Part shown: in pieces, positions 4,025 through 58,200 of the stretch
Numbering within the stretch: the first letter of the stretch is position 1
How the letters are laid out: each line of letters begins with the position of its first letter
NCBI RefSeq assembly: GCF_036588685.1
Contig: NC_086374.1
Span: forward strand, 60,884,001-60,948,000
Length of the DNA: 64,000 bases
Reading direction: 5' to 3'
DNA from: Mytilus trossulus
Taxonomy: Eukaryota
The notes under the pieces: generated by a model
What the model was told of the DNA's origin: nothing
Seen by the model: only the letters and a program-made list of their open reading frames with translations
The model's database searches: none
Program-made: the position numbers and the translations under genes

Positions 4025-4308
4025 GGTGGTACCTAACACTTTCACTAAAATTTATTTGGCTTGTTTAATTTTCATAAAATTTTGTCAATGTATTTACTTT
4101 GACCCTTTAACAAAAATATAAAAATGTCAAAAATTTTGAACCAACTGTTTTGTCAGAAAAATTACACTGGTTATATAGCAGTTTGACAAACACCAATTTT
4201 GATCATTGAGAAGCTTAATATTCCTTTTACAACACAACGCAACCTCATTAAAACATTTACCTAATTTTACAGAGTTATTTCCCTGTAGTGTTACATGTAG
4301 GTACCACC
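4025..4308. mobile_element. MITE with GGTGGTACCT termini (Kolobok-like, TTAA-type site)
   Basis: ttaa|GGTGGTACCTAACACT ... AGTGTTA(catgta)GGTACCACC|ttat, i.e. inverted termini. Confidence 0.6.
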
Positions 4309-5218
4309 TTATAGCAAGTGTTTGGTTGGGTTATTTTTTGCTATCCTTAATACAGACTGAATGAAAATATTCATCAAAAAATTTAAATCCAAGTACATTT
4401 TTAATTTTTTGAAATCCAAACTTCATAATTTTTTGTATATTTAGTGTCATAAAACTTTCCTGGATGCTTCTGTTGGTCTGTACTCATTGTCAAGGGTAGA
4501 ATTTGTAGTGTAAATAAGACTTTATTTTTAAGTTCCATTTGATTAACCTTAATTTAAAGCATTTATAATTATACACCATTTCTGGAGTCAAGTCCTCCAT
4601 GGGAAAAGATCATCAATTTTGCATGCCTTTATGATGTTATTTACCAGAAAGAAGCTTTAAGGCATGCCTGTATCCCTGTGCTATTAACATGATTAAAGTT
4701 TCAAGCACTTCACGGTCATAATTCTGCAGGGTAGACCGTAGTATAGAAATAATTCATGTTTCATAAGTGCGTATTCTTAATTTCCTTACAACTGAAGAGA
4801 TGGTGACCTACTTAATAGAATTAATTTCTAAAATATTTTGTGCAGTTCAACTTCAAGATACAAATGTTTTACCTCATTACATTTACATACATGTATACAT
4901 TGTACCTAATCTCTCAAGTTCTCAACATCATTACATGAGTTGGAAATGACAATGCCTACACTAAGTCTCATGGTGATGGAAGTAACATGACAGATTCAAC
5001 TAACTACTGGGCTATTGTCTGACATGTTGAGGATGGAAGAACAGACAGACAATGATATACCATAATATGTCTCGTGAACAGGGTAATAAAAAGTGATTGT
5101 TGTATGACCTCAGATGGCCATTTGTCAGCAATAACTGGACATCACAAAAATTTTAAGTCCTAATACAAACCATCTGATGCCCAAATGGAAAAGTGATTGT
5201 TGTATGACTGTTCACGTC

Positions 5219-5478
5219 AATACACCTTATCACTATTTGTCCGCCATTACTGGATATCACACAGGTTTCTGTAAAATTTTGACGTCATAAAACAAAATAT
5301 CTAAAGCCACAATGGAAAAGTGATTGTTGTATGCGTCAAAAGGTCAAGCAGCCGGTTCAGCCAGCCGAGAAGGCTAATAGCGATAAGGTGTATTGTTTTT
5401 AAAAGCTCAATTCGTGACTTAGCGTGGCAGATACTCAGGCCAACCGTCACAGATTTTCAAATAGCGATAAGGTGTATT
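5219..5478. mobile_element. Small inverted-repeat element (AATACACCTTATC...GATAAGGTGTATT) with a duplicated right end
   Basis: AATACACCTTATCACTAT at 5219, with near-complement ATAGCGATAAGGTGTATT at ~5377 and ~5461. The motif AAAAGTGATTGTTGTATG occurs three times between 5088 and 5333. Confidence 0.45.
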
Positions 5479-5939
5479 CAGTTATTAGATTAATTAAGCA
5501 GGTTTGTTACATTTCATGAGTTTACTATCCATACAAACCACCAAATGACTTTTTTCAGAGTTCCTGTGGATAGTAGATGCGTCACATAAAATTTGTAACA
5601 AACCCCAGCGATTGGCAGTTACCTTTGTAAGGTTAGAAAACATACATATGCTAAAGTTTTATATAAAGAAATTTGCTTAACTATGATATGCATGAATATT
5701 TCGAATTTACTTAAGTTTTTAAATTATGGGGTCGAATAATTTGCAAGTAAAAATGAAGTAGGGAAACCACTTTCTCTTGCAAACGTATCTGCGTACAACT
5801 GTTTGTAACAGTCACCCTCCTTGGAATTTATATGTACAAAAACTCTGCTGCTAAATACCACATATTCAAATAATTTCAAATGACCTTAGAATGCCTTCAT
5901 TAGCTGTAAAGCGGTTTCATTTAGCAGAGCACTTACTCT

Positions 5940-6040
5940 TGTTTACGGGGACGTCTACTCTTTCAGCAGATCTACCTTATTTCGACCCGAATTCCTTTCG
6001 CCACTATGCGATCACAATCGTCGACCCAAATCAGCTCTTT
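5940..6040 (-). promoter_or_regulatory. Candidate non-coding exon 1 / promoter region of DHX9
   Basis: The DHX9 ATG directly follows a splice acceptor, so an upstream non-coding exon is expected. This is a locally CpG-rich patch with a minus-strand donor AAG|GTAGAT at 5975. The position is an inference. Confidence 0.35.
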
Positions 6041-6234
6041 GAATTCATTTGGATATTATAAGTGCTCAACAACAACAAAATGATAATAATAATAATAATA
6101 ATAATAATAACTAGAAAAAAATATTCCTTATTATTTAAAAGAGGCATGTACCTTGAACAAAATCTTGATACCTGAAAAAAATAAATCAGTGATTTTTTTT
6201 CTCAATCAAACGTTTTTTAACAGAAATATTTAAC

Positions 6235-6420
6235 TGGTGACCCTGTGTTGGTAAAACTTGTGTCCTCCACGAGTTCTACTGTCGACACCTTTAAGGTAGG
6301 TACTCTTGTTGATGTCTATCAGCTCATTCTGCATACGATAGAGCATGCATAACCTGTTGTCACGGCGTCTTGTCTGTAATGACGCAGACTGATCAATGCG
6401 ATATTCGAGTTGTAACTTTG
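6235..6420 (-). mobile_element. 3' fragment of a non-LTR retrotransposon (LINE) ORF2, copy 1
   Basis: Translates SLQTRRRDNRLCMLYRMQNELIDINK...DSRTRGGHKFYQ, typical of the post-RT C-terminus of LINE ORF2. A paralogous copy lies at ~14036-14240. Confidence 0.6.
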
Positions 6421-6796
6421 TGCAATTACTGTCCCACTTGTGAATGGAAAAGTCAGGGATACCATTTACGCAAAAAAAAAAAGAAACAGAAATTGCGCCA
6501 ATATTCGGAACTCATTACCGCCAATTTACCTGTGGGCTAATATATCAAACAAATTAATGATTAATAAATAATTATTCTTATTTTTGGCTTATTAAGTAGA
6601 AGTCTCATTCGTGAAATTATTGTTACTCTTGTGCATATCATGACACTGGCAAACCCACAACAGTTAGAGTGGTAAATAATACGAATGACTCAACTTAAGA
6701 CCAACTAGACAGTCCATGCATGTACAGATTGAGAACGAAAAGAACTGTACTCTACCCAACCCAACTTTCCTGATGAAGGTAATTTTTGTTTGCTAT

Positions 6797-8205
6797 TACG
6801 GGGCGCCGAATGGGACTCTTGTGGTTTTGTACTCAAAATTCAATTTTGTACGGACAAAAGTGACTTTTGTTCAACAAAAATGAGTTCAGTTTAACAAAAT
6901 TTGTATCATACTACAAATTTGAAATTTTGTCATACAAAATTATCTAGCAGCGGACAAAAGTCACTTTTGTCATGACAAAATTCATTTTTGTTACACAGAC
7001 TTGACTTTTGTTACCTAATTTGAAAATTGAGCGACAAAAGTCAATTTTGTATTTAAATTAGTTTAGTTTGGTTTCTGTGAACTAATTTGCATACAAAATC
7101 GACTTTTGTTACACAAAATTGACTTTTGTTACACAAAAATTACTTTTGTTACACAAAATTGACTTTTGTTACACAAAATTGACCTTTGTTACACAAAATT
7201 GACTTTTGTTACACAAAATTGACTTTTGTTACACAAAATTGACTTTTGTGAGACAAAATTGACTTTTGTTACACAAAATTGACTTTTGTGAGACAAAATT
7301 GTCAAAATTGAATTTTGTCTCAACAAAATTAACAAAATTGAATTTTGTCTCAACAAAATTGATTTTTGTCTCACGAAAGTCAATTTTGTCTCACGAAAGT
7401 CAATTTTGTCTCATAAAAGTCAATTTTGTTGTTACAAAATTGAATTTTGTCATCACAAAAATGAATTTTGTCGTCACAAAATTGACTTTTGTTTCAACAA
7501 AATTGACAAAATTGACTTTTGTCTCAACAAAATTGAAAAAATGACTTTTGTCTCAACAAAATTAACAAAATTGACTTTTGTCTCAACAAAATTTACAAAA
7601 TTGACTTTTGTCTCAACAAAATTAACAAAATTGACTTTTGTCTCAACAAAAATGACAAATTTGAATTTTGTCTCAACAAAAATGACAAAATTGAATTTTG
7701 TCTCAACAAAAATGACAAAATTGAATTTTGTCTCACAAAAGTCAATTTTGTCTCACAAAAGTCAATTTTGTCTCACAAAAGTCAATTTTGTCTCACAAAA
7801 GTCAATTTTGTCTCACAAAAGTCAATTTTGTCTCACAAAAGTTAATTTTGTTTCACAAAAGTCAATTTTGTCTCACAAAATTGAATCTTACCGTACACAA
7901 TTGACTTTTGTGATTTAATTTCCATATCAGGTAACAAAAGTCAATTTTGTATGCAAATATGTTTATATTTGCATACCTTTAAGACAAAATTGACTTTTGT
8001 CATGACAAATATGAATTTTGTCTACAAAAATGAATTTTGTCATGACAAAAATGAATTTTGTCTACACAAATGAATTTTGTCATCCCAAAATTGAAGTTCT
8101 CACAAAACAAGTCTGTAGCACATAGTTTTGTAAGACAAAAATGATTTTGTTATGACAGAATTGAATTTTGTACAAAACCACAAGAGTCCCATTTGGCGCC
8201 CCGTA
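6797..8205. mobile_element. Non-autonomous foldback-type TIR DNA transposon (1409 bp) with an internal 20-31-bp satellite
   Basis: 36-bp TIRs TACGGGGCGCC(G/A)AATGGGACTCTTGTGGTTTTGTAC with one mismatch. 5-bp TSD GCTAT (6792-6796 and 8206-8210). The empty site TTTGTTTGCTATGGTG is visible at ~14613-14628 in the duplicate. The interior is made of ACAAAATTGACTTTTGT units in both orientations. Confidence 0.93.
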
Positions 8206-9082
8206 GCTATGGTGTTATCAATTTGTCGTTGGCTAATGAGTTTGAATATTTTTTTGGAATTTTCAACTTTTCTCTTCTCAACCCGGAATAACTTTCATTA
8301 GATGCAATCGAGATCAAAAGTTTTGGAAGACAACTTGTATGAGACGAAAATGAATGATTTCTAGTCATATACCTTTAAGGTTAATGGTCACTTCGAGTAC
8401 GGACAGTCCACAAACATTGAAACCAATCCAAAAAAGTTATTATTGTCATATGATAGCAATTTCATTTCGGACGACTCGTGTTTCTTCAACAAAAAAGAGG
8501 GTCGAAAGATACCAGAGGGACATTCACACTCATAGATGGAAAATAAACTGACAACGCCATGGCTAAAATAGGGGAAAAAACAAACAATCAGACAGACAGA
8601 CAAACAACAATACACCAGACACAACAAAAAAACGTAATGAATAAGCAATGAAATCAAAATCTTGAGGTGATCTCCGATGCTTCGGAAGGGCAAATAAAGA
8701 CAACAGTAGTATACCACTGTTCGAAATTCATCAATCGATTGAGAAAAAAACCAAATCCGGGTTACAAACTAAAACTGAGGGAAACACATCAAATATAAGG
8801 GGAGAACTACGATTTAACATGCAGAAACACAACATTTACATGTAACACACACAGAAACGAACTATAATATAACAATGTCCATTTTCCTGACTTAGTACAG
8901 GACGTTTTAAGAAAAAAAAATGGTGGGTTGAACCTGTTTTTTTTTGCATGCCAAACCTCCCGCTTTTATGGCAATGTTAAATATAACATTAAAATGACAA
9001 CATACAAATAAATAGGAGAACATATAGGACAGAGAAACACGCGAATGATAGCTTACAAAGAGTACCAGGTATAAAATGTAAT

Positions 9083-11765
9083 ACGCCAGACGCGCGTTTC
9101 GTCCCCACAAGACTAACCAGTGACGCACATAAGAAAATAGTTCGAATGTCAAAACAAGTACAATAAACTCATCATAGATACCAGGACTAAATTTTTTATA
9201 TACGGCAGACGCGCGTTTCGTCTACAAAAGACTCATCAGTGACGCTCGAATACAAAAAAGTTAAAAAGGCCAAATAAAGTACGAAGTTGAAGAGCATTGA
9301 GGACCAAAATTACTAAAAGTTTTGCCAAATACAGCCAAGGTAATCTATGCCTGAGGTAGAAAAGCCTTAGTATTATAAAAATTAAAAATTTTGTAAACAG
9401 GTAATTTATAAATATTACCATATCAATGATAATTCATGTCAGTACAAAGTGCTGACTACTAGTCTGGTGGTACCCTCGGGGGAATAAATTTCCACCAGCA
9501 GTGGCATCGACCAAGTGGTTGTAAATAAACTCATCATAGATACCAGGACTTCATTTTGTAAATACGCCAGACGCGCGTTCCGTCTATGAAAGACTCATCA
9601 GTGACGCTCGAATCCAAAACAGGTTAAAAGGCCAAATAAAGTACGAAGTTGAAGAGCATTGAGGACCAAAATTACTAAAAGATTTGCCAAATACAGCTAA
9701 GGTAATCTTTGTCTGAGGTAGAAAAGCCTTAGTATTTCAAAAATTTAAAATATGGCAAACAGGTAATTTATAAATATTACCATATCAATGATAATCCATG
9801 TCAGCACAAAGTGCAAAGTTGAAGAGCATTGAGGACCAAAAGTTCCAAAAAGTTGTGCCTAATACTGCCAGGGTTTTCTGCCTTGGATATAACATCCTTA
9901 TTATTTAGAACAATTCATACGTTTGCCAACTGAAAAATGCCTCTATTATAGTACATGATAAAACCGAAGTGGTGACTAACTACAGAATAAAACCAGCACA
10001 TACAAAAGGGTAATCAGTTCCTGTCCCTCGTGTGGCACCCAGCGCGCAATCCTCTATCAAGGAAATCATCTCTTTTGTCGAAATTTTTTATTTCCAACCG
10101 ACCCCATTGATAATTTCGAGATTTAATCCAAGATATGAGGCAGACTTAACTGTGTCTGTTGTATCCTTTATCGCTAGTTCGAATGGATAGATGCGTTCAA
10201 CATAGTCACAATATTTTGAATAATTTAGCGAGAGAACATTATCTTTACAACGGAAAGTAAAGTTAAAGGACATTGTTGACTTCTTTTCTTTCTTCCGATG
10301 ACGTTCTTGTATGAAGTCAGCATCATACGAATAAAGGAACAATTCGACAAGAAGAGGGGCACAGTTGTTTCCCATGGGAATACCGATAGTATGTTGAAAA
10401 AGTTATCCAAACGTAACAAATATGTTGTCAATCAAGATATCAAGCATCTTGATAATGTCAGTTTCAGAGATTTTTTTTGTTTGATTCAGAGTGATTTTTT
10501 TTACAAAGAAGAAAGTATCCCTCACAAAGACAAGAAACTTGCATCTACGTTGGCTTTTCTTTTTTATGAAACAAAGCAATACGTACTCTTTCAATTTGTA
10601 TTTTAGCTTGGAAAAGGAAATACTTGTGTAAAGTTTAGAAAAGTCAACTATTTCAATATTAATGGAAGATGAGTCTTGGATCGATGTAATGTAATTGATG
10701 CTTGGAATTTTTTAGTATCCACATCTGATTCACATCACCTCTAGAATAGGCAGCTTTAAAATAACTTTGAAGCATTGCTTTGATTGCTGATAAATGCGAT
10801 GTAAATAATTAAGAAAGAGGTTTCGTGGAGAACTTGGGAGACACAGCAATATACCGTTGTTTGTAAGGGCACTTATGTAATTTAGGTATCCAATACAATG
10901 ATTGAAGATTATTTTCTTAATCTTTGGTTGTATTTCCAAGGGAACATAGAAAAGAATAAAGAAAATATTATCCAGGATTTCTTCTTCAGTAATTGTCGTG
11001 TGGATATATGTTGAGTTTCTAAGTGAATTGCGGGAACAACAACATATTTGCCATGGAGGTAGGACAAGTATTTGCAACATTTGGGTATTTAAAGATTGAA
11101 ATAACGTGGGTATTGATAGACCTATCCAGTTGCTTAATTCTGGTTTGCATCAACGACCTCACAGTCTTAATTCATATGGAAAAAAGCATCACGTCTTATT
11201 TCTAGTGTTTAACCAATCGCCTGGAATAATCCCTGACTTACTCCATCAGTATTTCAAAGTTGTGTTTCTAATTGACGGATTTAAGCTCACGATATTTTGG
11301 ATCTATGGATTACACATTTCGCAGGGTTATTGACAATGTCGAGGTCACCAATAATAACGTGACCAGCCGGATTTTATATGAGAGGGAATCTAGCACAGCT
11401 GCAATCAGGAGTTTTAGACTTGAATTCGTCAATATTGATATCCTGCAAAACCTGCTTGTAGTTGAAAATCTTAGTTGCAATTGGTTTGGTATTGGTATAA
11501 GACGGATCTTTAAAATAGGGAGATATTTGTGTTTGAACTAATTTATGATGAAGGATATTGCCCAATTTGACGGCAGCGAGGCCTTTGTTGGCAAAGGAAA
11601 GTTTAAAAAAGGATCTCTTTCTCTTTTTCATCTTTTCCAATGCGAACTGGTTTGAAAAGTCTGTAACTTGGAATATCCAAAATGATAGCTGTAAATTTGT
11701 ATTGGTTAGAATGAGGGTTTGTAACAGTGGTTTCCAATATAAATCGAACAGAGAATGAACTTTAA
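9083..11765 (-). mobile_element. Decayed Penelope-like element (RT remnant plus hammerhead-bearing terminal repeats), copy 1
   Basis: Frameshifted ORF pieces: FFKLSFANKGL...LGNILHHK; IPMGNNCAPLLVELFLYSYDADFIQ...FRCKDNVLSLN (decayed YIDD); ...SASYLGL...FDKRDDF. These are PLE-type RT motifs. The 362-bp tandem repeats with HHR motifs follow at the 3' end. No GIY-YIG domain was recognised. Confidence 0.85.
9201..9247 (-). ncRNA. Minimal type-I hammerhead ribozyme (core intact)
   Basis: Minus strand GAGCGTCA-CTGATGA-GTCT TTTGT AGAC-GAAA-C GCGC G-TC^TGCCGTA: CUGAUGA and GAAA cores, 4-bp stem II, palindromic stem-III loop, GUC cleavage triplet. Flanking copies at 9083-9128 (core CTGGTTA) and 9563-9609 (GGAA instead of GAAA) are mutated. 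Confidence 0.85.
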
Positions 11766-12045
11766 CAACATTTACCAGATTCTCTCAAGATTGATGTTTT
11801 TTATGTCGTAAACTTACCGACGACATTGTTCTTTATCATTCGTTGCTTTGATGTGATGGAAACCAGAATTTACTCGCAGAAGTTTCTATCCACTCGAAAA
11901 ACATATACAGTTTAAAATTCAGTTTAAACAAGTTTATGATAAATAAAGATGCAATTTCTTAACGGAAAATATAAAACTAATACATACAAAATGGAAAGTA
12001 AATTGTTATATGACTATTGTTTCTTATAATTCTATTAAATACAAT

Positions 12046-12851
12046 TCACCGTTCAAAGTTTTGAAATTCTCCTGGCATATTACTTAGTTCTTTAATGGTT
12101 GGGAATTTTTTTGTATCCCTAATTCTTTTAGTCACCGTTATATCTGGTTGAGGTCTAGGGGTCTTAGAAGATCTGTGTTTCAAATCAACTGAAAACACTG
12201 ATAAATTTGCTTCAGACATAACCATATCAATACTAGAAGGTCTCTGAATCGATAACGGTGTTGAAGTTCTAGGATCATAACTAAAAGAATTGTTAAAACT
12301 ATTGTCATGAGCTGCTGTTTTAATTGTTCCATTTGTGATTTTATTTTTGCGCATGCTCATTGTTCGACTTTTTGCTTGAGGGTCATGAACATATTGACTC
12401 ATTCTACTTTTAGGTGGAAAAATTGATGCTGCCTGACTCATTTTACTGGCTGCTGCTTCTCTATTATATGCATCTTTATTCGCAGCATCCTTAGCCTTTA
12501 ACACTGCTATAACACGCAACTCCCTTTCTAAGTTAGTTTTCACTCTGTCGATAACGAGCGCCTGGTTGCGTTTACGTTCACTGTCTTCACGCATCTGGGT
12601 AGCAACTCGACTTTTCATTGTGTCTATTGTCGCTATGGGTGGTTGCGGTTTTGTTACTAATTTAAGCTGTCCTTCTGGTTCTTGAAACTCAGAGTTTTGT
12701 TTCCATTGTTGTAGTTCCATGCTCTGTGGTTGCCCATTCCTGATTGGTTTTACTACAAGTTTAGGCTCTGTTATTATTTCCTTGTTTACCATGGTATTGG
12801 TGTCTGACAAAGTAAACACAGTATGGGCTCCTCTAGGAAGTGTTTTTGGAA
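12046..12851 (-). pseudogene. Duplicated terminal exon of gene A (intact ORF and acceptor; possible alternative last exon)
   Basis: Encodes the same protein as 18476-19281 and keeps the acceptor TTTTATAG|TT at 12852-12853. The upstream intron and its donor (13944-13949) are also duplicated, but only ~15 nt of the TM exon are. Confidence 0.75.
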
Positions 12852-13314
12852 CTATAAAATCAAAAAATCAAAAACGATTATATTAATTTATTAATTGGAC
12901 TTATTCTCTATCTCTAATCTAAGAGGAAAATTTCTAAACATTTTTCATTTGATTAAGCACATACATATACATGTTTTGATTCACTATAATATATAATGTG
13001 TTGTACGTATTGACGTTAATGCCTCAACAGCTTTGGTTAAAAATCCTTTTTGAAATATTCATGAAATAGGAATGAAGATGTTACATCATTCAAGTTGTAT
13101 AGTTGTATAGTTATTTCTCAAACTGTTTGAAATTTTATTAATTTGCACTAATATTGTGTTAATTTATCGCTCTTTGGATTGAGCACATTTGGGAAAAAGA
13201 TCTGTTCCATGGCAGTAAATCAGATGCATGAATAAATTTTAAATAAGATAACATTCTAACTAAATGATAATAAACTATCGGTTTTGTCATTGGTTTAATA
13301 AATATTTTGATTTT

Positions 13315-13360
13315 AGCGTCACTGATGAGTCTTATGTAGACGAAACGCGCGTCTGGCGTA
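13315..13360 (+). ncRNA. Solo minimal hammerhead ribozyme (PLE/retrozyme fragment)
   Basis: AGCGTCA CTGATGA GTCT TATGT AGAC GAAA C GCGC GTC^TGGCGTA. Stem I GCGUCA/UGGCGU is fully paired, counting G-U pairs. Confidence 0.85.
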
Positions 13361-13960
13361 CTAAATTATAATCCTGGTACCTTTGATAACTTTTAACACT
13401 ATTTTGATAAAAAATGATTAGATATCATATTATATTAATCTAATCTAAGATCGCACCAAATTCTGATTTAAAATACTGTTATCTTTGGTTCGTATGGTCT
13501 TCAGAAATATGCGTTTTCAGATATTGTTCTCTTAATTTTTTATTATCTCAGACTTTTTCTATTCCTTCTTTGCATTAGCCCTTTTACATTTTGACTAACA
13601 ACAACACATGAATTAATGCTGTCAGTAGTCATCGTGTTGAAATTCCTACTAATTACTTGAAACAATATGTGACATGGTTAATTGCTAACTCTGATTACAT
13701 AAATACTGTAGATTTTTTAAAATTAAATATAACAGGGGATTCAATTGGCGTTAGATGCATGCATGACACGAGTCGATAACCTGTTCTTTTGATTTCATGC
13801 GATTCTTCGTTTTATTACGTTAATTATTATCTATTTGATTAACGCATTAATAAGATTTGAACATCGATAAACTACTGTTATCTCTAATATATCTAGTGCA
13901 ATTTACAATTTGCTGTTTGACAAGAGCATTGAAATTAGCCTATACTTACTGATAGTGATT

Positions 13961-14035
13961 TTCTTCTTCTTCTTCTTCTTCTTCTTCTTCTTCTTCTTCT
14001 TCTTCTTCTTCTTCTTCTTCTTCTTCTTCTTCTTC
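13961..14035 (-). repeat. (GAA)25 microsatellite, probably the LINE 3' tail, at the duplication junction
   Basis: Perfect (TTC)25 on the plus strand, abutting the LINE fragment on one side and the truncated TM-exon remnant on the other. Confidence 0.9.
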
Positions 14036-14240: not shown

Positions 14241-15507
14241 GTAACTTTGCAATTACTGTCCCCCTTGTGAATGGAATAGTCAGGGATACCATTTACGCCA
14301 AAAAAAAAAAACCAACAGAAATTGCGCCAATATTCGGAACTCTTTAGCGCCAATTTACCTGTGGGCTAATATATCAAACAAATTAATGATTAATAAATAA
14401 TTATTCTTATTTTATCTTATAAAGTAGAAGTATCATTCGTGAAATTATTGTTACTCTTGTGCATATCATGACACTGGCAAACCCACAACAGTTAGAGCGG
14501 TAAATAATACGAATGACTCAACTTAAGACCAACTAGACAGTCCATGCATGTACAGATTGAGAACGAAAAGAACTGTACTCTACCCAACCCAACTTTCCTG
14601 ATGAAGGTAATTTTTGTTTGCTATGGTGTTATCAATTTGTCGTTGGCTAATGAGTTTGAATATTGTTTTGGAATTTTCAACTTCTCTCTTCTCAACCCGG
14701 CATAACTTTCATTAGATGCAATCGAGATCAAAAGTTTTGGAAAACAACTTGTATGAGACGAAAATGAATGATTTCTAGTCATATACCTTTAAGGTGAATG
14801 GTCACTTCGGGTATGGACAGTCCACAAGCATTGAAACCAAAATAGTTATTATTGTCATATGATAGCAATTTCATTTCGGACGACTCGTGTTTCTTCAACA
14901 AAAAAGAGGGTCGAAAGATACCAGTGGGACATCCACACTCATAGATGGAAAATAAACTGACAACGCCATGGCTAAAATAGGGGGAAAAACAAACAATCAG
15001 ACAGACAGACAAACAACAATACACCAGACACAACAAAAAAACGTAATGAATAAGCAATGAAATCAAAATCTTGAGGTGATCTCCGATGCTCCGGAAGGGC
15101 AAATAAAGACAACAGTAGTATACCACTGTTCGAAATTCATCAATCGATTGAGAAAAAAACCAAATCCTGGTCACAAACTAAAACTGAGGGAAACACATCA
15201 AATATAAGGGGAGAACTACGATATAACATGCAGAAACACAACATTCACATGTAACACACACAGAAACGAACTATAATATAACAATGTCCATTTTCCTGAC
15301 TTAGTACAGGACGTTTTAAGAAAAAAATGGTGGGTTGAACCTGGTTTTTTTTGCATGCCAAACCTCCCACTTTTATGGCAATGTTAAATATAGCATTAAA
15401 ATGACAACATTACATGACAGGACTACAATACAAATAAATAGGAGAACATATAGGACAGAGAAACACGCGAATGATAGCTTACAAAGAGTACCAGGTATAA
15501 AATGTAA

Positions 15508-18195
15508 TACGTCAGACGCGCGTTTCGTCCCCACAAGACTAACCAGTGACGCACATAAGAAAATAGTTCGAATGTCAAAACAAGTACAATAAACTCATCA
15601 TAGATACCAGGACTAAATTTTTTATATACGGCAGACGCGCGTTTCGTCTACAAAAGACTCATCAGTGACGCTCGAATACAAAAAAGTTAAAAAGGCCAAA
15701 TAAAGTACGAAGTTGAAGAGCATTGAGGACCAAAATTACTAAAAGTTTTGCCAAATACAGCCAAGATAATCTATGCCTGAGGTAGAAAAGCCTTAGTATT
15801 ATAAAAATTTTAAATTTTGTAAACAGGTAATTTATAAATATTACCATATCAAAGATAATTCATGTCAGTACAAAGTGCTGACTACTGGGCTCGTGGTACT
15901 CTCGGGGGAATAAATTTCCACCAGCAGTGGCATCGACCAAGTGGTTGTAAATAAACTCATCATAGATACCAGGACTACATTTTGTATATACGCCAGACGC
16001 GCGTTCCGTCTATGAAAGACTCATCAGTGACGCTCGAATCCAAAACAGGTAAAAAGACCAAATAAAGTACGAAGTTGAAGAGCATTGAGGACCAAAATTA
16101 CTAAAAGATTTGCCAAATACAGCTAAGGTAATCTTTGTCTGAGGTAGAAAAGCCTTAGTATTAGAAAAATTTAAAATATGGCAAACAGGTAATTTATAAA
16201 TATTACCATATCAATGATAATCCATGTCAGCACAAAGTGCAAAGTTGAAGAGCATTGAGGACCAAAAGTTCCAAAAAGTTGTGCCTAATACTGCCAGGGT
16301 TTTCTGCCTTGGATAAGAACATCCTTATTATTTAGAACAATTCATACATTTGCCAACAGAAAAAATGCCTCTATTATAGATTTACATGATAAAACCGAAG
16401 TGGTGACTAACTACAGAATAAAACCAGCACATACAAAAGGGTAATCAGTTCCTGTCGCTTGTGTGGCACCCAGCGCGCAATCCTCTATCAAGGAAATCAT
16501 CTCTTTTGTCGAAATTTTTTATTTCCAACCGACCCCATTGATAATTTCGAGATTTAATCCAAGATATGAGGCAGAATTAACTGTGTCTGTTGTATTCTTT
16601 ATCGCTAGTTCGAATCGATAGATGCGTTCAACATAGTCACAATATTTTGAATTATTTAGCGAGAGAACATTATCTTTACAACGGAAAGTAAAGTTAAAGG
16701 ACATTGTTGACTTCTTTTCTTTCTTCCTATGACGTTCTTGTATGAAGTCAGCATCATACGAATAAAGGAACAATTCGACAAGAAGAGGGGCACAGTTGTT
16801 TCCCATGGGAATACCGATAGTATGTTGAAAAAGTTCTCCAAACGTAACAAATATGTTGTCAATCAAGATATCAAGCATCTTGATAATGTCAGTTTCAGAG
16901 ATTTTTTTTGTTTGATTCAGAGTGATTTTTTTACAAAGAAGAAAGTATCCCTCACAAAGACAAGATACTTGCATCTACGTTGGCTTTTCTTTTTTATGAA
17001 ACAAAGCAATACGTACTCTTTCAATTTGTATTTTAGCTTGGAAAAGGAAATACTTGTGTAAAGTATAGAAAAGTCAACTATTTCAATATTAATGGAAGAT
17101 GAGTCTTGGATCGATGTAATGTAATGGATGCTTGGAATTTTTTAGTATCCACATCTGATTCACATCACCTTTAGAATAGGCAGCTTTAAAATAACTTTGA
17201 AGCATTGCTTTGATTGCTGATAAATGCGATGTAAATAATTAAGAAAGAGGTTTCGTGGAGAACTTGGGAGACACAACAATATACCGTTGTTTGTAAGGGC
17301 ACTTATGTAATTTAGGTATCCAATACAATGATTGAAGATTCTTTTCTTAATCTTTGGTTGTATTTCCAAGGGAACATAGAAAAGAATAAAGAAAAGATTA
17401 TCCAGGATTTCTTCTTCAGTAATTGTCGTGTGGATATATGTTGAGTTTCTAAGTGAATTGCGGGAACAACAACATATTTGCCATGGAGGTAGGACAAGTA
17501 TTTGCAACATTTGGGTATTTAAAGATTGACATAACGTGGGTATTGATAGACCTAACCAGTTGCTTAATTCTGGTTTGTATCAACGACCTCACAGTCTTAA
17601 TTCATATGGAAAAAAGCATCACGTCTTATTTCTAGTGTTTAACCAATCGCCTGGAATAATTCCTGACTTACTCCATCAGTATTTCAAAGTTGTGTTTCTA
17701 ATTGACGGATTTAAGCTCACGATATTTTGGATCTATGGATTACACATTTCGCAGGGTTATTGACAATGTCGAGGTCACCAGTAATAACGTGACCAGCCGG
17801 ATTTTATATGAGAGGGAATCTAGCACAGCTGCAATCAGGAGTTTTAGACTTGAATTCGTCAATATTGATATCCTGCAAAACCTGCTTGTAGTTGAAAATC
17901 TTAGTTGCAATGGGTTTGGTATTGGTATAAGACGGATCTGTAAAATAGGGAGATATTTGTGTTTGAACTAATTTATGATGAAGGATATTGCCCAATTTGA
18001 CGGCATCGAGGCCTTTGTTGGCAAAGGAAAGTTTAAGAAAGGATCTCTTTCTCTTTTTCATCTTTTCCAATGCGAACTGGTTTGAAAAGTCTGTAACTTG
18101 GAATATCCAAAATGATAGCTGTAAATTTGTATTGGTTAGAATGAGGGTTTGTAACAGTGGTTTCCAATATAAATCGAACAGAGAATGAACTTTAA
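15508..18195 (-). mobile_element. Decayed Penelope-like element with hammerhead repeats, copy 2
   Basis: ORF 16519-16974 contains GIPMGNNCAPLLVELFLYSYDADFIQ. The same architecture as 9083-11765. Confidence 0.85.
15627..15673 (-). ncRNA. Minimal type-I hammerhead ribozyme (core intact), duplicate copy
   Basis: Same sequence as 9201-9247. Mutated neighbours at ~15508-15553 and 15989-16035. Confidence 0.85.
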
Positions 18196-18475
18196 CAACA
18201 TTTACCAGATTCTCTCAAGATTGATGTTTTTTATGTCGTAAACTTACCGACGACATTGTTCTTTATCATTCGTTGCTTTGATGTGATGGAAACCAGAATT
18301 TACTCGCAGAAGTTTCTATCCACTCGAAAAACATATACAGTTTAAAATTCAGTTTAAACAAGTTTATGATAAATAAAGATGCAATTTCTTAACGGAAAAT
18401 ATAAAACTAATACATACAAAATGGTAAGTAAATTGTTATATGACTATTGTTTCTTATAATTCTATTAAATACAAT

Positions 18476-21400
18476 TCACCGTTCAAAGTTTTGAAATTCT
18501 CCTGGCATATTACTTAGTTCTTTAATGGTTGGGAATTTTTTTGTATCCCTAATTCTTTTAGTCACCGTTATATCTGGTTGAGGTCTAGGGGTCTTAGAAG
18601 ATCTGTGTTTCAAATCAACTGAAAACACTGATAAATTTGCTTCAGACATAACCATATCAATACTAGAAGGTCTCTGAATCGATAACGGTGTTGAAGTTCT
18701 AGGATCATAACTAAAAGAATTGTTAAAACTATTGTCATGAGCTGCTGTTTTAATTGTTCCATTTGTGATTTTATTTTTGCGCATGCTCATTGTTCGACTT
18801 TTTGCTTGAGGGTCATGAACATATTGACTCATTCTACTTTTAGGTGGAAAAATTGATGCTGCCTGACTCATTTTACTGGCTGCTGCTTCTCTATTATATG
18901 CATCTTTATTCGCAGCATCCTTAGCCTTTAACACTGCTATAACACGCAACTCCCTTTCTAAGTTAGTTTTCACTCTGTCGATAACGAGCGCCTGGTTGCG
19001 TTTACGTTCACTGTCTTCACGCATCTGGGTAGCAACTCGACTTTTCATTGTGTCTATTGTCGCTATGGGTGGTTGCGGTTTTGTTACTAATTTAAGCTGT
19101 CCTTCTGGTTCTTGAAACTCAGAGTTTTGTTTCCATTGTTGTAGTTCCATGCTCTGTGGTTGCCCATTCCTGATTGGTTTTACTACAAGTTTAGGCTCTG
19201 TTATTATTTCCTTGTTTACCATGGTATTGGTGTCTGACAAAGTAAACACAGTATGGGCTCCTCTAGGAAGTGTTTTTGGAACTATAAAATCAAAAAATCA
19301 AAAACGATTATATTAATTTATTAATTGGACTTATTCTCTATCTCTAATCTAAGTGGAAAATTTCTAAACATTTTTCATTTGATTAAGCACATACATATAC
19401 ATGTTTTGATTCACTATAATATATAATGTGTTGTACGTATTGACGTTAATGCCTCAACAGCTTTGGTTAAAAATCCTTTTTGAAATATTCATGAAATAGG
19501 AATGAAGATGTTACATCATTCAAGTTGTATAGTTGTATAGTTATTTCTCAAACTGTTTGAAATTTTATTAATTTGCACTAATATTGTGTTAATTTATCTC
19601 TCTTTGGATTGAACACATTTGGGAAAAAGATCTGTTCCATGGCAGTAAATCAGATGCATGAATAAATTTTAAATAAGATAACATTCTAACTAAATGATAA
19701 TAAACTATCGGTTTTGTCATTGGTTTAATTAATATTTTGATTTGAGCGTCACTGATGAGTCTTATGTAGACGAAACGCGCGTCTGGCGTACTAAATTATA
19801 ATCCTGGTACCTTTGATAACTTTTAATACTATTTTGATATAAAATGATTAGATATCATATTGTATTAATCTAATCTAAGATCGCACCAAATTCTGATTTA
19901 AAATACTGTTATCTTTGGTTCGTATGGTCTTCAGAAATATGCGTTTTCAGATATTGTTCTCTTAATTTTTTATTATCTCAGACTTTTTCTATTCCTTCTT
20001 TGCATTAGCCCTTTTACATTTTGACTAACAACAACACATGAATTAATGCTGTCAGTAGTCATCGTGTTGAAATTCCTACTAATTACTTGAAACAATATGT
20101 GACATGGTTAATTGCTAACTCTGATTACATAAATACTGTAGATTTTTTAAAATTAAATATAACAGGGGATTCAATTGGCGTTAGATGCATGCATGACACG
20201 AGCCGATAACCTGTTCTTTTGATTTCATGCGATTCTTCGTTTTATTACGTTAATTATTATCTATTTGATTAACGCATTAATAAGATTTGAACATCGATAA
20301 ACTACTGTTATCTCTAATATATCTAGTGCAATTTACAATTTGCTGTTTGACAAGAGCTTTGAAATTAGCCTATACTTACTGATAATGATTTTCTTTGTGT
20401 GCTTTTTAATATAACTTCTATAACAGCAAATACCAATTACTAGAGCCAGAAATATGATTAACATTAGACTGAAAACTATTGCAAAGATTGCTGCAATTGA
20501 CAGCGGATCATCTGGCGGGGTTACTGGTGCTGAAAGTAGAGATATCAAAATGATGTTCGGGCTGATTCGTCGTTTAACATTCTAAAGGATTGCGGATAAT
20601 TGCTATGTTTGCATACAAATGTGAAAACAAAGTTATGCAATTTGATGACTAGGCTAAACATTGTATCCACAACATATGTTGTACGCTTTTGAAAATATTT
20701 AAAGAAATAACATTGATGTTAAAAAAAATTACATGAATATTGTTTATCAAAGATACCAGACAACATACGACCCATCAATGAGAATCAAAACAGTTCGAGG
20801 TCCAAGTCGAAAACGAAGTTAAAGAGCATAAACCGAAAAGTAAAAACATTTGTAATCAAAGTTAAGAAAAGGTATAGTAATTTTAGAAATAATTATTTTA
20901 AACATAACATTTGGTTTACAAGTTTAATGCAGCATTCAGATATGAACCAATGATCTCGCTAGTTGTCAGTTAAACTAGTATTTTAAATGGTAAGGTAGAA
21001 CTAGAGCGAATTCAAGATATGGACTGCTGTGTCACTGATTTCGACCCATAGCAATTACTAGTAATTGACAACAATATAACTCTTGAGAAAATTTCCGTTG
21101 ATGTGACCAGTTGAGGCCTGTTGTATACAAATTATGTTTGTAAAGTATTCAATCAGGTGCACTGATAGTTTAAAGCAAGTTAATACTCACCACAGGATGC
21201 TGAAAATAGTGTATAATTAGAATTAAAAAGGTATTAATTAAAATGATTAATGAAATGTTTTTTTCTAAACACAAGCAAAACTTGCATCACCATAACCAAG
21301 TACAACATGTATATCATTACGCTTCATGATAGTTTGAACGTTGATTTCCCTTAAAATATAAGCTCGATTGCAAGTAGTCCTGTGATCTTTTCAGAAAAAG

Positions 21401-32900: not shown

Positions 32901-35900
32901 GTTTTCCTTTAGGATAATACGGAATTTCGGGTCTCCAATGCTCTTTAACTTTTTACTTTTTTGGCTCTATAAATATTTTCATCTGAGCGTCACTGATGAG
33001 TCTTATGTAGACGAAACGCGCGTCTGGCATACTAAATTATAATCCTGGTACCGTTAATAACTGATTAAAAAAGTTGTTGAAAAAAATGAGGTCACGTTTG
33101 TTATGGTAAATTTTCTTCTTTAACATTCAAGAGTCATGTTATAGATAATGCATACTCTAAGGGTATTCTAAGTAAATTATAGTTCGCATGTTTATCAAGG
33201 AATATATTACATCACACTGGTCATTATTTTATGCCTTGGACCATATATCATTGAAACATGGTATCGTCCGGGTAGATTCTTCGAAAGAATGACCTATCGT
33301 TCTAAATGAAAATTACTCCATATAGGTATATAAGTTCTTTGATAGTTTTGAGAATGACAATTTATGTAGTTTCCGTGTAATTATTTATGAACCGTTTGAC
33401 GAATATTGTTCAAGTTAAATTTTACTTGTAACTTGTGACAAAATCGAGGTAAAGAACGACATTGAAATTTTTCATTTTTGCGGTTCACGATTTATTGCCC
33501 ATGATAGATTATAAAATATGCACAGAAAATGGCAGTTCACACATGCATGAAAGCGTCTAAAATACAAAAACACCGATTTTATGTTAATTTCCAAGCTTTT
33601 TTTTGGTAAAATTTGCTTTTGATATACATAAAAATAAAATTGAGAATGGAATCTAGCAGTTTAGCAGATAATACCATTCATGAGAAGACTTTTTATATAT
33701 TGAGTTGTGTAAAATCTTAGTAATAATGATGGAACATTTGGTGATACAACAATACCATTCATCTATTCGCCTGTAAATATCAGTTGAGGTACGTGAACGA
33801 CCCGTTACAAGTACTTCTAGCGTAGTGCACCATTATAACAGGAACAGCTCTTCATACTATTTCGACGAATAGAACATTAGGGAAAACGGTACTATTTATT
33901 CTGCCATAGGCGACAATATTAACATTTTCTGAATTTACCACTTTTTATGATAAAAACCTGGATAAAACAGTTATATCTGAATTTACCACTTTTTATGATA
34001 AAAACCTTGGATAAAACAGTTATATGTGGTGTTAGTACTTTATTATTCTGTTTTAAAACTTAAAGCCAAATAGTAATATGATCAACTTCCAACAGAGCTT
34101 GTTCATGTTATTCATGCCCACCGTCATTTTGCACCAAATTTATCCAATTTTTTCGAATAATTCTCTAGAAAATATTTCAATAGGTTTCAAAATTTATATT
34201 GTAGATATACACACTGCAGTTATTCATAGATAAATAAAAAAATATATTGTACCCTTACATCCAATCACAGCGCTACTAATTTGACTTCCTTCGCTTGCCT
34301 TGGGTACACAAAAGGCCAACCTAATGCTGGGAAAATGTAATAGTACCGTTTTCCCATTAGACCGATGGGACAGTTAAATAAGACGTGATGCATAAGTATA
34401 AAAGGATAATCTTCAATATCTGAATAAAAGAAGCAAAAGAATAAACTTAATAATTTAGTTGCAACAACTTTGTGCAGTAATTTCCTCATACACGTTTTAT
34501 CTAATTGACATTTAAAATATCTTTTTTTTATTCAAAGGTTCAGAGGAAAGTGCTTTAACTGATTGTCCAGATCCACTTTACAGAAATTTTACCTACATTT
34601 TCAACACTGGTGGAACAGATATATGTTCTTCGCCGAACAACGGATTTGTTTCAGTTTGTCCTAGCAGACAAGAGTTGAACTTTGACTACGACAAATGTGC
34701 CAATAAAATAGCGTATACGAGTATGTGTTAGAATTATAATATAGATATAAACAAAATAAAATAATGAGATGTGGGTTAAACGTCGATGAGGCAACAACAC
34801 AACACATTGAAAAAATCAATTCATCTCGCGTTATGTCAGGCGCTTGCATAAATATTTAGCTACATTTGTGATATTTACAAAACTTAGCTTTCTCTGGTTC
34901 TTATCTGTTGACAAACTAATTAAATGCAATAAGAAATATGTAAAAATTTAGTTTTAATTGCACCCAATGAAGGATGGATATTTACGGCGATGCCATTTTT
35001 TTTTAATGTTACATCTGTTATGAATGAATGTTTTGGGCTTTGAAACGAATTTGGATCCAGTATTGTCTTGATCCCTTCTTTTGCTTGATAAAATAATTAT
35101 ATATCAACCAATAAAAAAAAGATGGTGCTCACTTTGATGTAAAAAAGGGTAAAATCAAGATATCAAGACAACTTCAATATCTTTACCTTTATCGACAATG
35201 ACATAGATCACAGGATAAGCTACAAAACGTCCAATGTACATGACAATTAATGTGAAAAACATAAAATATGGAGACAAACAAATACATTATTTAGATCAAC
35301 AAATGAAAGCGATATAAAACATAAACGTCTAGGACAAGATCTTGCATAGTTGAATCATGTTTTCATAATAAATCTTCTTATCTTTATGCAGCATTTGGAA
35401 GACTTGGTTGTGTTGCGTCTATCGTTGACGATTCATCAGGAACATACTATGCGTCTTTGTATAATTTTGACGATACAGTTAATCGACTGTCAACATTCAG
35501 ATTCACTTGTGTGGTAAGCTCATCAATAGCCACACTACAGTTAGTGTGTATATAATGTGAACTGAGTTAACATATTAAGGGCAGCAGTGAATAAAAAAAA
35601 AAAGAAGATATTATAGTACATTAATAAGACAAAAAAATCCAACAATAACAACAAACAGCACAAACCTTTAAGATTAAATTCTCCAGTTAAAGAAAAATTT
35701 GAACGCTTGGTGATCATTTTCTAACACAAAATAATGAAATTTGCAAATATTGAAAAATATCACAAAACTTCTTTTAATTTTTATTTAGTATTCCAACAAT
35801 AATTTTAGCAGTTATTCATATTCTGACTATGATGCATTAGATGAACAAAATCTTAACCCCACTAAAATGATAGTAAATTTGTTGTTCTATTTTTAGGCAG

Positions 35901-55200: not shown

Positions 55201-58200
55201 ATTTCTATAAAGGGCAGACAACATTTAAGCTTTACTTTTTTAGGGCATAATTCCACCTTGCCTAACGGCTCTGGAAATTTGTACCTCTCAACCGGCAAAT
55301 ACCCCTTGTAAGCATGATATATTTGTATAAAATCTTTTTGTGGACTTTCATTAACCTTTGGAATAACAGATGTAGGTTTCAAAATATAAAATCTATGTTG
55401 TGTCAAAATGAAAAAAAAATTTGTTAATTTAAAAATGGAAGTTGTTTTGTGATTTCCAATTAAAAACTCCCCAACAGAGATAAACTGACGTACACGTAAA
55501 TAAACAAGTCACTGCATGGCCTTCAATAATTAGCAAAATCTATACCACACAGAGAGTTATAGAAGGTCCCGAAATGTTAAATGAAACGCAATTCAAATCA
55601 GAAAACTAATGGCCTGATTTATGATGATAAACAGCAACAAAAACAACCAGTGAATTGTCGACTGATTAATTTATAACTTTTTATTTCAAAAGAGGTTCAC
55701 ATTTGAATTAAATTTTGATAAATTACGATTAAACATCTATAAAAACAGACGAAAGTGAAACACAAGTTTGGCTTTTCCTTATCTTCATATATTTGGCTTC
55801 CTTTCATTTTTAGCTTTGCCAGCAATCAATGATTTAAAAAACATTTTTTTTTCAACTTTGGCCTCACGAAGATATAGAAACGCCAGCAGGTCAGACACAA
55901 ATAAACATGTATTTGACATTTGTATACATAAAAAATGACCTGAATAATGTCACATATCAATCATTACTTAACACTTCAAACAATTATATATCTCTGTATG
56001 GATATGTTAAAATGGAGATACTTATTATAAGGAGGTGAAAACTTGACGCAACAAATGAACAAAACAAAACAAAACAAAAGATCGTTGTGACTTAGAGTTC
56101 TTTTAACGACACCCAAAAATGTTAATACTATATCTATGATAGAAAAATTTCTGTTACAGGTACTTGTGGTGAGTAAATTAAAAAAAAAAATCTTACTACC
56201 TTTTTATGTTAAGAAAACTGTTACTTTTTTGTAATTTATCAGAAATGGTTGTTTCTATTATTCCATATTATCAACATTACTACAGCGTAAAAATATTACT
56301 AACAAATATGCTAACAGTCAGTTTCAAAATCTAAAAAAGTGAAGATCTGCTTTTTAAAAAAACAATATTTAAGCCAAGTTGTGAAGCAACAAAGCCGACA
56401 TAAGATATGTTAAATGCAGTTCGACCGAACAATAGTACATATAACATAGTAACAAACCCGACATAAGATATGTTAAATGCAGTTCGACCGAACAATAGTA
56501 CATATACATAGTAACAAATCCGACATAAGATATGTTAAATGCAGTTCGACCGAACAATAGTACATATACATAGTAACAAATCCGACATAAGATATGTTAA
56601 ATGCAGTTCGACCAAACAATAGTACATATTACATAGATATGTTAAATGTAGTTCGACCGAACACTAGTACATATTACATAGATATGTTAAATGTAGTTCG
56701 ACCGAACAATAGTACATATTAAATAGATATGTTAAATGCAGTTCGACCGAACAATAGTACATTTACATAGTAACAAACCCGACATAAGATATGTTAAATG
56801 CAGTTCGACCAAACAATAGTACATATACATAGTAACAAATCCGACATTAGATATGTTAAATGCAGTTCGACCAAACAATAGTACATATAACATAGATATG
56901 TTAAATGCAGTTCGACCGAACAATAGTACATAAACATAGTAACAAACCCGACATAAGATATGTTAAATGCAGTTCGACCAAACAATAGTACATATTACAT
57001 AGATATGTTAAACGTAGTTCGACCGAACAATATTACATATTACATAGATATGTTAAATGCAGTTCGACCGAACAATAGTACATATTACATAGATATGTTA
57101 AATGTAGTTCGACCGAACAATAGTACATATTACATAGATATGTTAAATGCAGTTCGACCGAACAATGGTACATATTACATAGATATGTTAAATGCAGTTC
57201 GACCGAACAATAGTACATATTACATAGATATGTTAAATGTAGTTCGACCGAACAATAGTACATATTACATAGATATGTTAAATGTAGTTCGACTGAACAA
57301 TAGTACATATTACATAGATATGTTAAATGCAGTTCGACCGAACAATAGTACATATTACATAGTAACAAACCCGACATAAGATATGTTAAATGCAGTTCGA
57401 CCGAACAATAGTACATATACATAGTAACAAACCCGATATAAGATATGTTAAATGCAGTTCGACCAAACAATAGTACATATTACATAGATATGTTAAATGT
57501 AGTTCGACCGAACAATAGTACATATTACATAGATATGTTAAATGCAGTTCGACCGAACAATAGTACATATTACATAGATATGTTAAATGCAGTTCGACCG
57601 AACAATAGTACATATTACAAAGATATGTTAAATGTAGTTCGACCGAACAATAGTACATATTACATAGATATGTTAAATGCAGTTCGACCGAACAATAGTA
57701 CATATTACATAGATATGTTAAATGCAGTTCGACCAAACAATAGTACATATTACATAGATATGTTAAATGCAGTTATACCGAACAATTATCTTACATATTA
57801 CATAGATATGTTAAATGCAGTTCGACCGAACAATAGTACATATTACATAGATATGTTAAATATAGTTCGACCGAACAATAGTACATATTACATAGATATG
57901 TTAAATGCAGTTCGACCGAACAATAGTACATATTACATAGATATGTTAAATGCAGTTCGACCGAACAATAGTACATATTACATAGATATGTTAAATGCAG
58001 TTCGACCGAACACTAGTACATATTACATAGATATGTTAAATGCAGTTCGACCGAACAATAGTACATATTACATAGATATGTTAAATGTAGTTCGACCGAA
58101 CAATAGTACATATTACATCGATATGTTAGTTGCAGTTCAACCGAACAATAGTACATATTTCATAGATTTGTTAAATGCAGTTATACCGAACAATTATCTT

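What the first reader, a model, noticed from the sequence alone, without database searches (positions are those of the whole stretch)
9083..9815. Tandem hammerhead ribozymes at 362-nt spacing: retrozyme/circRNA-type unit at the end of a Penelope-like element
Seen: HHR motifs on the minus strand with cleavage nucleotides at 9570, 9208 and 9089 (15996 and 15634 in the duplicate). The repeat period is 362 bp. Stem III is reduced to about one base pair around a palindromic CGCGCG. Established: PLE terminal repeats and animal non-LTR retrozymes carry minimal type-I HHRs that cleave as dimers and release monomers that circularise. Here only the middle copy has both cores intact; the upstream copy has GGAA and the downstream copy CUGGUUA. 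Because dimeric HHRs swap strands, a hybrid active site could still be assembled from intact halves of different copies (inference).
Basis: partly seen in the sequence, partly recalled or inferred. Interest (0 to 1): 0.7.

Follow-up and report, generated by a model that had tools for sequence, protein, structure and literature searches.

The report
Mussel retrozyme made of Naiad parts
The 362-base repeat is a worn copy of a known mussel ribozyme repeat, predicted to make little or no RNA circle here, but its whole unit matches two pieces of Naiad jumping genes (a folded start signal and a tail segment with a likely dead ribozyme), so Naiads are likely both its copying helper and its close kin.

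Summary
The three hammerhead motifs are real (C17 at 9570, 9208, 9089), but they are not one array, and not a Penelope terminal repeat. 9814-9162 is a decayed 1.8-unit copy of a dispersed family that fits the published Mytilus non-LTR retrozymes. It sits inside a fragment of a Naiad 3' UTR ('Naiad C'), which sits inside another Naiad relic. The third motif belongs to that UTR: canonical cores are absent from every copy of that family scored, so it is a family-wide fossil. A stem-III swap cannot join one copy's CUGAUGA to another's GAAA; only the middle core could cut both sites, and its own stem I is mismatched. RNA-seq shows family-level reads only. The interesting result lies outside the coordinates: unit positions ~42-105 match a covarying 63-nt leader that opens three autonomous Naiad families, and positions 105 to the fixed 3' end match the Naiad C 3' UTR. 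The scan already noted the leader link on other DNA (four notes). The UTR fossil appeared in none of my note or paper searches. Whether Naiad C captured the retrozyme or gave rise to it is unresolved.

The parts
9162..9814 (-). Retrozyme family 1 insertion, 1.80 units, from unit position 118 to the family's fixed 3' end (position 46)
   Evidence: junctions
9208..9569 (-). 362-nt monomer between the two cleavage sites (the circle that double cleavage would release)
9564..9607 (-). Upstream type I hammerhead, core CUGAUGA, A13G (GGAA), stem I 6 of 6 pairs; variant seen in 0 of 152 other family 1/2 motifs
9202..9245 (-). Middle type I hammerhead, core intact, stem I with a U-C mismatch (variant seen in 11 of 152)
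9455..9520 (-). Structured 63-nt leader shared with the 5' start of Naiad families A, B, C; this copy breaks 4 of 18 pairs
9083..9126 (-). Third motif: fossil hammerhead (CUGGUUA) of the Naiad C 3' UTR, not a unit of the 362-nt array
9815..10005 (-). Naiad C 3' UTR fragment, upstream half (contiguous with 9161 in other copies)
8691..9161 (-). Naiad C 3' UTR fragment, downstream half, ending at that family's fixed 3' end; the whole fragment is flanked by CCCTT at 10010-10006 and 8690-8686
10006..11763 (-). Decayed, 5'-truncated Naiad A relic (RT with frameshifts, stops and two deletions), 81-82% to young copies
8493..8690 (-). 3' end of the Naiad A relic
14620..20395 (.). Second copy of the whole nest in a 98% local duplication of 8206-13965

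Best explanation
The 362-nt repeat is a decayed 1.8-unit copy of a high-copy mussel hammerhead repeat, nested in a Naiad 3' UTR fragment that is nested in a second Naiad relic, and the family is likely copied into the genome by Naiad reverse transcriptase, which is predicted to recognise a folded leader that the repeat shares with Naiad 5' ends. Shown: nesting, fixed 3' ends just before the leader, variable 5' ends, the leader and its covariation, homology of the rest of the unit to the Naiad C 3' UTR, non-canonical cores there. Taken from the literature: mussel retrozyme transcripts self-cleave and accumulate as circles. Inferred: the leader, lying just 3' of the copying start in a tandem or circular RNA, recruits the RT-endonuclease for target-primed copying; Naiad C most likely captured a leader-less retrozyme in its UTR before families 1 and 2 split, and the ribozyme lost activity because a cut there would sever the ORF from the 3' end; this particular copy would release a circle poorly at best.
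For: Family: 4500 first-look candidates, 40 scored, full-length copies 86-93% identical on many contigs. 3' ends at unit position 45-55 in 28 of 28 family 1 loci and 38-45 in 29 of 29 scorable family 2 loci (1 of 30 cut by the locus edge), 5' ends scattered. Leader: the only retrozyme-like stretch at a fixed place in full-length PLE loci; follows the upstream 3' end in Naiad A (L121, L123, L037, L038, L056), 78-88% identical to retrozyme copies; leader plus ORF start is 98-100% conserved in 40 of 40 listed copies; present in Naiad B and in Naiad C, found later, which folds into the same structure. 138 of 138 cells paired, 7 of 23 pairs with double changes, slid controls 39-52%. None of the C-terminal-EN PLE loci hit the leader. 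Nesting: the two window halves are contiguous in L217, L235, L276. Naiad C: 6 of 30 loci chosen by upstream UTR sequence run into a Naiad-type RT C-terminus at the same offset; L276 holds a tandem with a 927-codon open frame with N-terminal GIY-YIG, CxC and DKA. Homology to the family 2 unit starts at position 103-107 in 17 of 21 and ends at the canonical 3' end in 18 of 21 loci with a hit. Canonical core in 0 of 26 older UTR copies (2 not scorable), G8 absent in 17 of 17 cores at the expected place, core or GAAA broken in 22 of 22 motifs of the younger set, against 113 of 152 intact in retrozymes.
Against: No experiment links Naiad RT to the leader; a DNA-level promoter or a shared ancestry without current use could give the same similarity. 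Covariation rests on only five families and on a structure read from these sequences. Other PLE families with their own minimal hammerheads and long frames exist in this genome and are alternative helpers. The tree is unrooted and places the UTR fossils outside families 1+2 (100/99), so it does not show capture. The homology boundary at the leader base is one ancestral event, not 17. The monomer circle folds no better than shuffles (z 0.04). No clear target-site duplications at retrozyme ends. Identity with the published mussel clones could not be checked (supplement unreadable). That A13G, A6G and G8U abolish cleavage is recalled knowledge; searches found no paper to cite.
Confidence: 0.7

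Rival explanations
1. Retrozymes were born from Naiad C itself: an ancestral Naiad carried an active hammerhead in its 3' UTR, and a deletion joined its 5' leader to that UTR segment to give the 353-362-nt unit; the autonomous lineage later lost the ribozyme.
For: Leader plus UTR segment account for the entire unit, abutting at position 105; UTR fossils fall outside retrozyme families 1+2, with the two single-change (CUGAUUA) copies nearest to them; retrozymes derive from PLE terminal sequence in Xenopus (10.64898/2026.07.22.740005).
Against: The fossil ends exactly at the retrozyme's own 3' end, ~430 nt inside the UTR, as an insertion would; 5' truncations near the leader base are common (positions 84-122 in 11 of 57); retrozymes insert into Naiads often (this window, L190, L195); the retrozyme leader is closer to Naiad A than to Naiad C.
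Confidence: 0.25
2. One reading: the tandem is the terminal repeat of the adjacent Penelope-like element and releases a 362-nt circle through hybrid dimers among three copies.
For: Same strand and 3' of an RT relic; 8-bp inter-copy helix III possible (-13.3 kcal/mol); middle core with upstream GUC has a full stem I (-6.9).
Against: 0 of 28 sister Naiad A loci have the unit at their 3' end; third motif is from another element; in the equilibrium ensemble the productive middle/upstream pairing has probability 0.01-0.045, the unproductive third/upstream helix 0.81; upstream unit carries 16 private changes, 4 in the downstream unit.
Confidence: 0.07
3. The family is mobilised by a canonical PLE (C-terminal endonuclease) or a LINE, and the leader is only a borrowed internal promoter or a relic of ancestry.
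For: Such PLEs with long frames and their own minimal hammerheads are present; Penelope and Chlamys have internal promoters at this junction (PMC8557442 passage).
Against: No sequence shared with those PLEs at a fixed place; paired changes point to an RNA structure; both Naiads and retrozymes end a few bases before the leader.
Confidence: 0.2

Closest known systems
Mytilus galloprovincialis non-LTR retrozymes (Cervera and de la Pena 2020, PMC7229834; parts 2-4 of 6 read; supplement unreadable)
   Same: Type I HHR in 350-390-bp repeats, two similar families, low GC, no ORF, thousands of copies.
   Different: This copy has only one intact core and a damaged leader; the paper names PLEs in general as candidate helpers, not Naiads, and in the parts read describes no leader or fixed 3' end.
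Naiad Penelope-like elements (Craig et al. 2021, PMC8557442; section 6, passages and two supplement rows read)
   Same: N-terminal GIY-YIG, CxC, DKA, KR-rich block, 5' truncation, partial tandems; Naiad B here carries the same EN peptide as Naiad_Mgal.
   Different: Naiads are described as lacking canonical HHRs, and neither Mytilus row is flagged HHR_core; here one Naiad lineage carries a retrozyme-homologous fossil HHR in a ~1.2-1.7-kb 3' UTR.
Xenopus retrozymes as derivatives of PLE pseudo-LTRs (Li, Clavereau, Pollet 2026, 10.64898/2026.07.22.740005; parts 1-3 of 5 read)
   Same: Retrozyme sequence homologous to PLE terminal regions.
   Different: Vertebrates only; there Naiads were found only in the coral outgroup and not tied to retrozymes; no shared structured leader reported in the parts read.
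Minimal HHRs of metazoan PLE pseudo-LTRs (Cervera and de la Pena 2014, PMC4209133; parts 1-2 of 4 read)
   Same: Type I topology, palindromic stem III region allowing dimers.
   Different: Those have helix II of 6-8 bp, short helix I and little or no helix III; here 6, 4 and 2 bp, the paper's canonical metazoan type.

Membership tests
Metazoan non-LTR retrozyme | Type I HHR in each unit of a 150-450-bp tandem repeat | tested here: met
   362-nt period, motif in both units; arrays of up to 7 units elsewhere
Metazoan non-LTR retrozyme | Non-coding, GC below 50% | tested here: met
   36% GC, longest stop-free frame 65 codons; PBS/PPT not searched
Metazoan non-LTR retrozyme | Dispersed high-copy family | tested here: met
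Metazoan non-LTR retrozyme | [quoted passage not shown] 2026) | tested here: not met
   upstream motif has GGAA; middle has a stem I mismatch
Metazoan non-LTR retrozyme | Highly self-paired predicted circle | tested here: not met
   -67.2 kcal/mol vs shuffles -67.4 +/- 5.4, for this decayed copy only
Metazoan non-LTR retrozyme | Self-cleavage and accumulation as circRNA | not testable with these tools
   family-level reads only; junction reads cannot tell circle from tandem
Mytilus galloprovincialis retrozyme (published clones) | Sequence identity to the cloned repeats | not testable with these tools
   supplement unreadable; filing rests on size, two families and a Mytilus-type Naiad
PLE pseudo-LTR with minimal HHR | Motif lies in the terminal repeat of the flanking RT element | tested here: not met
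   0 of 28 Naiad A loci carry the unit at the 3' end; 3 of 28 have a motif elsewhere
PLE pseudo-LTR with minimal HHR | Long helix II, short helix I, no helix III | tested here: not met
   6/4/2 bp; true minimal motifs occur beside other PLEs
Naiad PLE (relic and family C) | N-terminal GIY-YIG, CxC, DKA | tested here: met
   met in long copies L121-L123 and L276; the window relic shows CxC and KR block, is truncated before the EN and broken at DKA
Naiad PLE (family C) | No canonical HHR | tested here: met
   only non-canonical fossils:

The most novel reading that the evidence does not exclude
Mussel retrozymes are Naiad-built and Naiad-driven: the unit is a Naiad 5' RT-recruiting leader joined to a 3' UTR segment of an ancestral hammerhead-bearing Naiad, whose autonomous descendants silenced the ribozyme by several routes. 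This would name the origin and helper of an abundant animal circRNA family, show that Naiads once carried an active hammerhead, and give a 63-nt structured start signal for a telomerase-like RT.
Probability: 0.25. Interest if true: 0.75.

Novelty: new variant of a known kind. Interest (0 to 1): 0.47.

Why it matters
The locus itself is an ordinary decayed copy of a described family. What matters is the family's anatomy: the helper of animal retrozymes is an open question (PLEs proposed, not identified, in PMC7229834), and how PLE reverse transcriptases choose their start is unclear. A short covarying leader shared by three Naiad families and two retrozyme families makes both directly testable, and a fossil hammerhead in a Naiad 3' UTR bears on whether hammerheads serve or parasitise PLEs (raised in PMC8557442).

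Tried and rejected
Rfam gathering scan missed all three motifs; an E-value scan of four loci gave no ribozyme, tRNA or other family for the leader, only NEAT1_2 at E 0.39. Pfam found no RT in the short relic frames; identification came from relatives. Run search: no RNA holder listed. Four raw RNA runs: 4172-8604 reads each at 88% likeness, mostly 90-95% alike and often family 2, with more first mates on + over the hammerhead in 3 of 4 runs (strandedness not established); no pile-up at cleavage sites. At 98%, 48-79 reads per run, nearly all only partly laid, none across the nest junctions; other individuals, so no evidence of silence. The apparent fixed 5' end 50 nt upstream was a search-window artefact. 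'Family 3 is a non-autonomous element' was dropped. A TGGTA-type motif near the 3' ends of Naiad A and retrozymes is absent from Naiad C's end and is not used. 10 of 23 insertions of at least one unit end at 1.0-1.15 units (expected 18%, P about 0.005, post hoc): fits a cleaved 5' end or stalling after one round, so it does not decide circle versus linear template. Equilibrium folding ignores core energetics and co-transcriptional folding. Paper searches gave nothing on core mutants. Searches listed no paper tying Naiads to retrozymes or to a UTR hammerhead fossil beyond the general remarks cited; subscription journals and the preprint's supplements were not seen.

Full report
Observation. On the minus strand three hammerhead motifs end at 9570, 9208 and 9089, repeated at 15996, 15634 and 15515 in a 98% local duplication; three more motifs lie on the plus strand at 13353, 19783 and 33024. 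The period is 362 nt with 291 nt repeated. All three have a 6-bp stem I position, 4-bp stem II and a 2-bp stem III closing GCGC within an 8-nt palindrome. The upstream one has GGAA, the middle one a U-C mismatch in stem I, the third CUGGUUA. This is the canonical metazoan type I form of PMC4209133, not the minimal PLE form.

The 362-nt unit. It is non-coding and 36% GC and belongs to a dispersed family (4500 candidates, 40 scored). A second family, about 80-83% alike, has a 353-nt unit. This matches the published mussel retrozymes: two families, 350-390 bp, cleavage at about 0.1/min, abundant circles (PMC7229834). The genome is likely a Mytilus (inference: one PLE here has the EN peptide of Naiad_Mgal). 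I could not compare sequences with the published clones. Of 152 family 1/2 motifs in non-redundant loci, 113 have intact cores, none has GGAA or CUGGUUA, so the upstream change is private decay. The upstream unit has 16 private changes, the downstream 4, shared 2. In six other arrays units are 94-98% alike within and 88-92% between arrays.

Ends. 3' ends fall at unit position 45-55 in 28 of 28 family 1 loci and 38-45 in 29 of 29 scorable family 2 loci, past the cleavage site; 5' ends are scattered; no consistent target-site duplication. In the set chosen for full monomers, two insertions run about 40 nt further, like the PLE tail described. This is the pattern expected of target-primed reverse transcription (established knowledge).

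Context. The relic at 11763-10062 is a Naiad (family A), 81-82% identical to young copies with N-terminal GIY-YIG, CxC and DKA. Its 3' end resumes at 8690-8493. None of 28 sister loci carries the unit at the 3' end. Between lies an insert, 10005-8691, flanked by CCCTT, itself split by the retrozyme: the two halves are contiguous in L217, L235 and L276. So the order is Naiad A, then the insert, then the retrozyme, then the duplication.

The third motif. It belongs to that insert, a high-copy sequence with a fixed 3' end. Canonical cores are found in 0 of 26 copies (14 read CTGGTTA, 2 not scorable; chosen by likeness to the window copy). In 30 loci chosen by upstream sequence alone, G8 is absent in all 17 cores at the expected place, A6 kept in 4, and 6 loci run into a Naiad-type RT C-terminus at the same offset. 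A search with that RT found a younger family: 22 of 29 loci show the motif downstream, all with core or GAAA broken, mostly CTGGTGA with AAGG. L276 is a tandem with a 927-codon Naiad frame, 66% to family A and 59% to B. The third motif is thus a fossil in the 3' UTR of a Naiad lineage (C). That these changes stop cleavage is recalled knowledge, not tested.

The leader. Full-length Naiad A begins, right after the upstream copy's 3' end, with about 63 nt that match what follows the retrozyme's 3' end; 40 of 40 listed copies keep leader and ORF start together. Naiad B has it with an extra hairpin (6 of 18 pairs with double changes; B rows are misaligned in the inner helix). Naiad C, found after I had defined the structure, folds the same way; over retrozymes 1, 2 and Naiads A, C, 138 of 138 cells pair and 7 of 23 pairs change on both sides. 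Five families and a structure read from the same sequences limit this. PLE loci with C-terminal endonuclease gave no hit. The Naiad C UTR matches the rest of the unit, from position 103-107 (17 of 21 loci with a hit, of 30) to the canonical 3' end (18 of 21); the leader stem ends at 105. Majority identities are 84% to family 2 and 77% to family 1, against 85% between them; an unrooted tree puts the UTR copies outside families 1+2.

Mechanism. Family (70%): transcripts self-cleave and circularise as published; Naiad RT-endonuclease likely binds the leader and starts copying just 5' of it, giving fixed 3' ends, truncated 5' ends and partial tandems (inferred). Naiad C more likely captured a leader-less copy and lost cleavage than gave rise to the family (about 3 to 1, inferred). 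This copy: in a stem-III swap CUGAUGA, stem II and GAAA remain on one copy (follows from the topology; merging of stems III per PMC6466107 passage), so only the middle core can act. It could cut 9570 (stem I -6.9 kcal/mol) and, weakly, 9208 (-2.4); the released circle would carry an intact motif. Equilibrium folding gives that pairing 0.01-0.045. RNA-seq shows the families are transcribed but nothing specific to this locus.

Novelty. The repeat is known. I reached the leader link; the scan had noted it four times on other DNA, unchecked notes that I do not count as support. Searches list no paper reporting it. The Naiad C UTR fossil was in no note and the two Mytilus rows of the Naiad supplement carry no HHR flag. 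Interest 0.47.

Noticed in passing
window 12046-12867 (-), duplicate 18476-19297: 273-codon open frame with a polypyrimidine-AG site near 12850 and a stop at 12046; looks like a host gene's last exon, 2 kb upstream of the nest on the same strand, a possible source of read-through transcription. No Pfam hit.
   Followed up: no
window 13290-13417, 19720-19821, 32961-33089 (+): 5'-truncated single copies of retrozyme family 2 with intact cores; the last passes Rfam's gathering score.
   Followed up: partly
L162, L167, L172: Minimal hammerhead-like motifs (core CTGAAGA, no stem III) beside PLEs with C-terminal endonuclease; three at 548-nt spacing in L162.
   Followed up: no
L155/L156 3' UTR; L190; L195: Further retrozyme pieces inside Naiad sequence: a family 2 3' end in a Naiad B subfamily UTR, family 1 copies in a Naiad C end and a Naiad A body.
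   Followed up: no
window 8870-8975 (-) vs L157, L160, L161: A ~105-nt block of the Naiad C UTR is 75% identical to the Naiad B 3' UTR, a second conserved Naiad UTR element.
   Followed up: no
L277:3850-3920: A divergent leader-like sequence upstream of a 5'-truncated Naiad C frame, perhaps a further family.
   Followed up: no
L015, L028: Arrays whose units all lack 2 nt in the stem III palindrome, showing array-wide propagation of one variant.
   Followed up: no
window 6830-8170; 56385-58900: 20/30-nt minisatellite with inverted arms, and a 45/62-nt satellite array.
   Followed up: no
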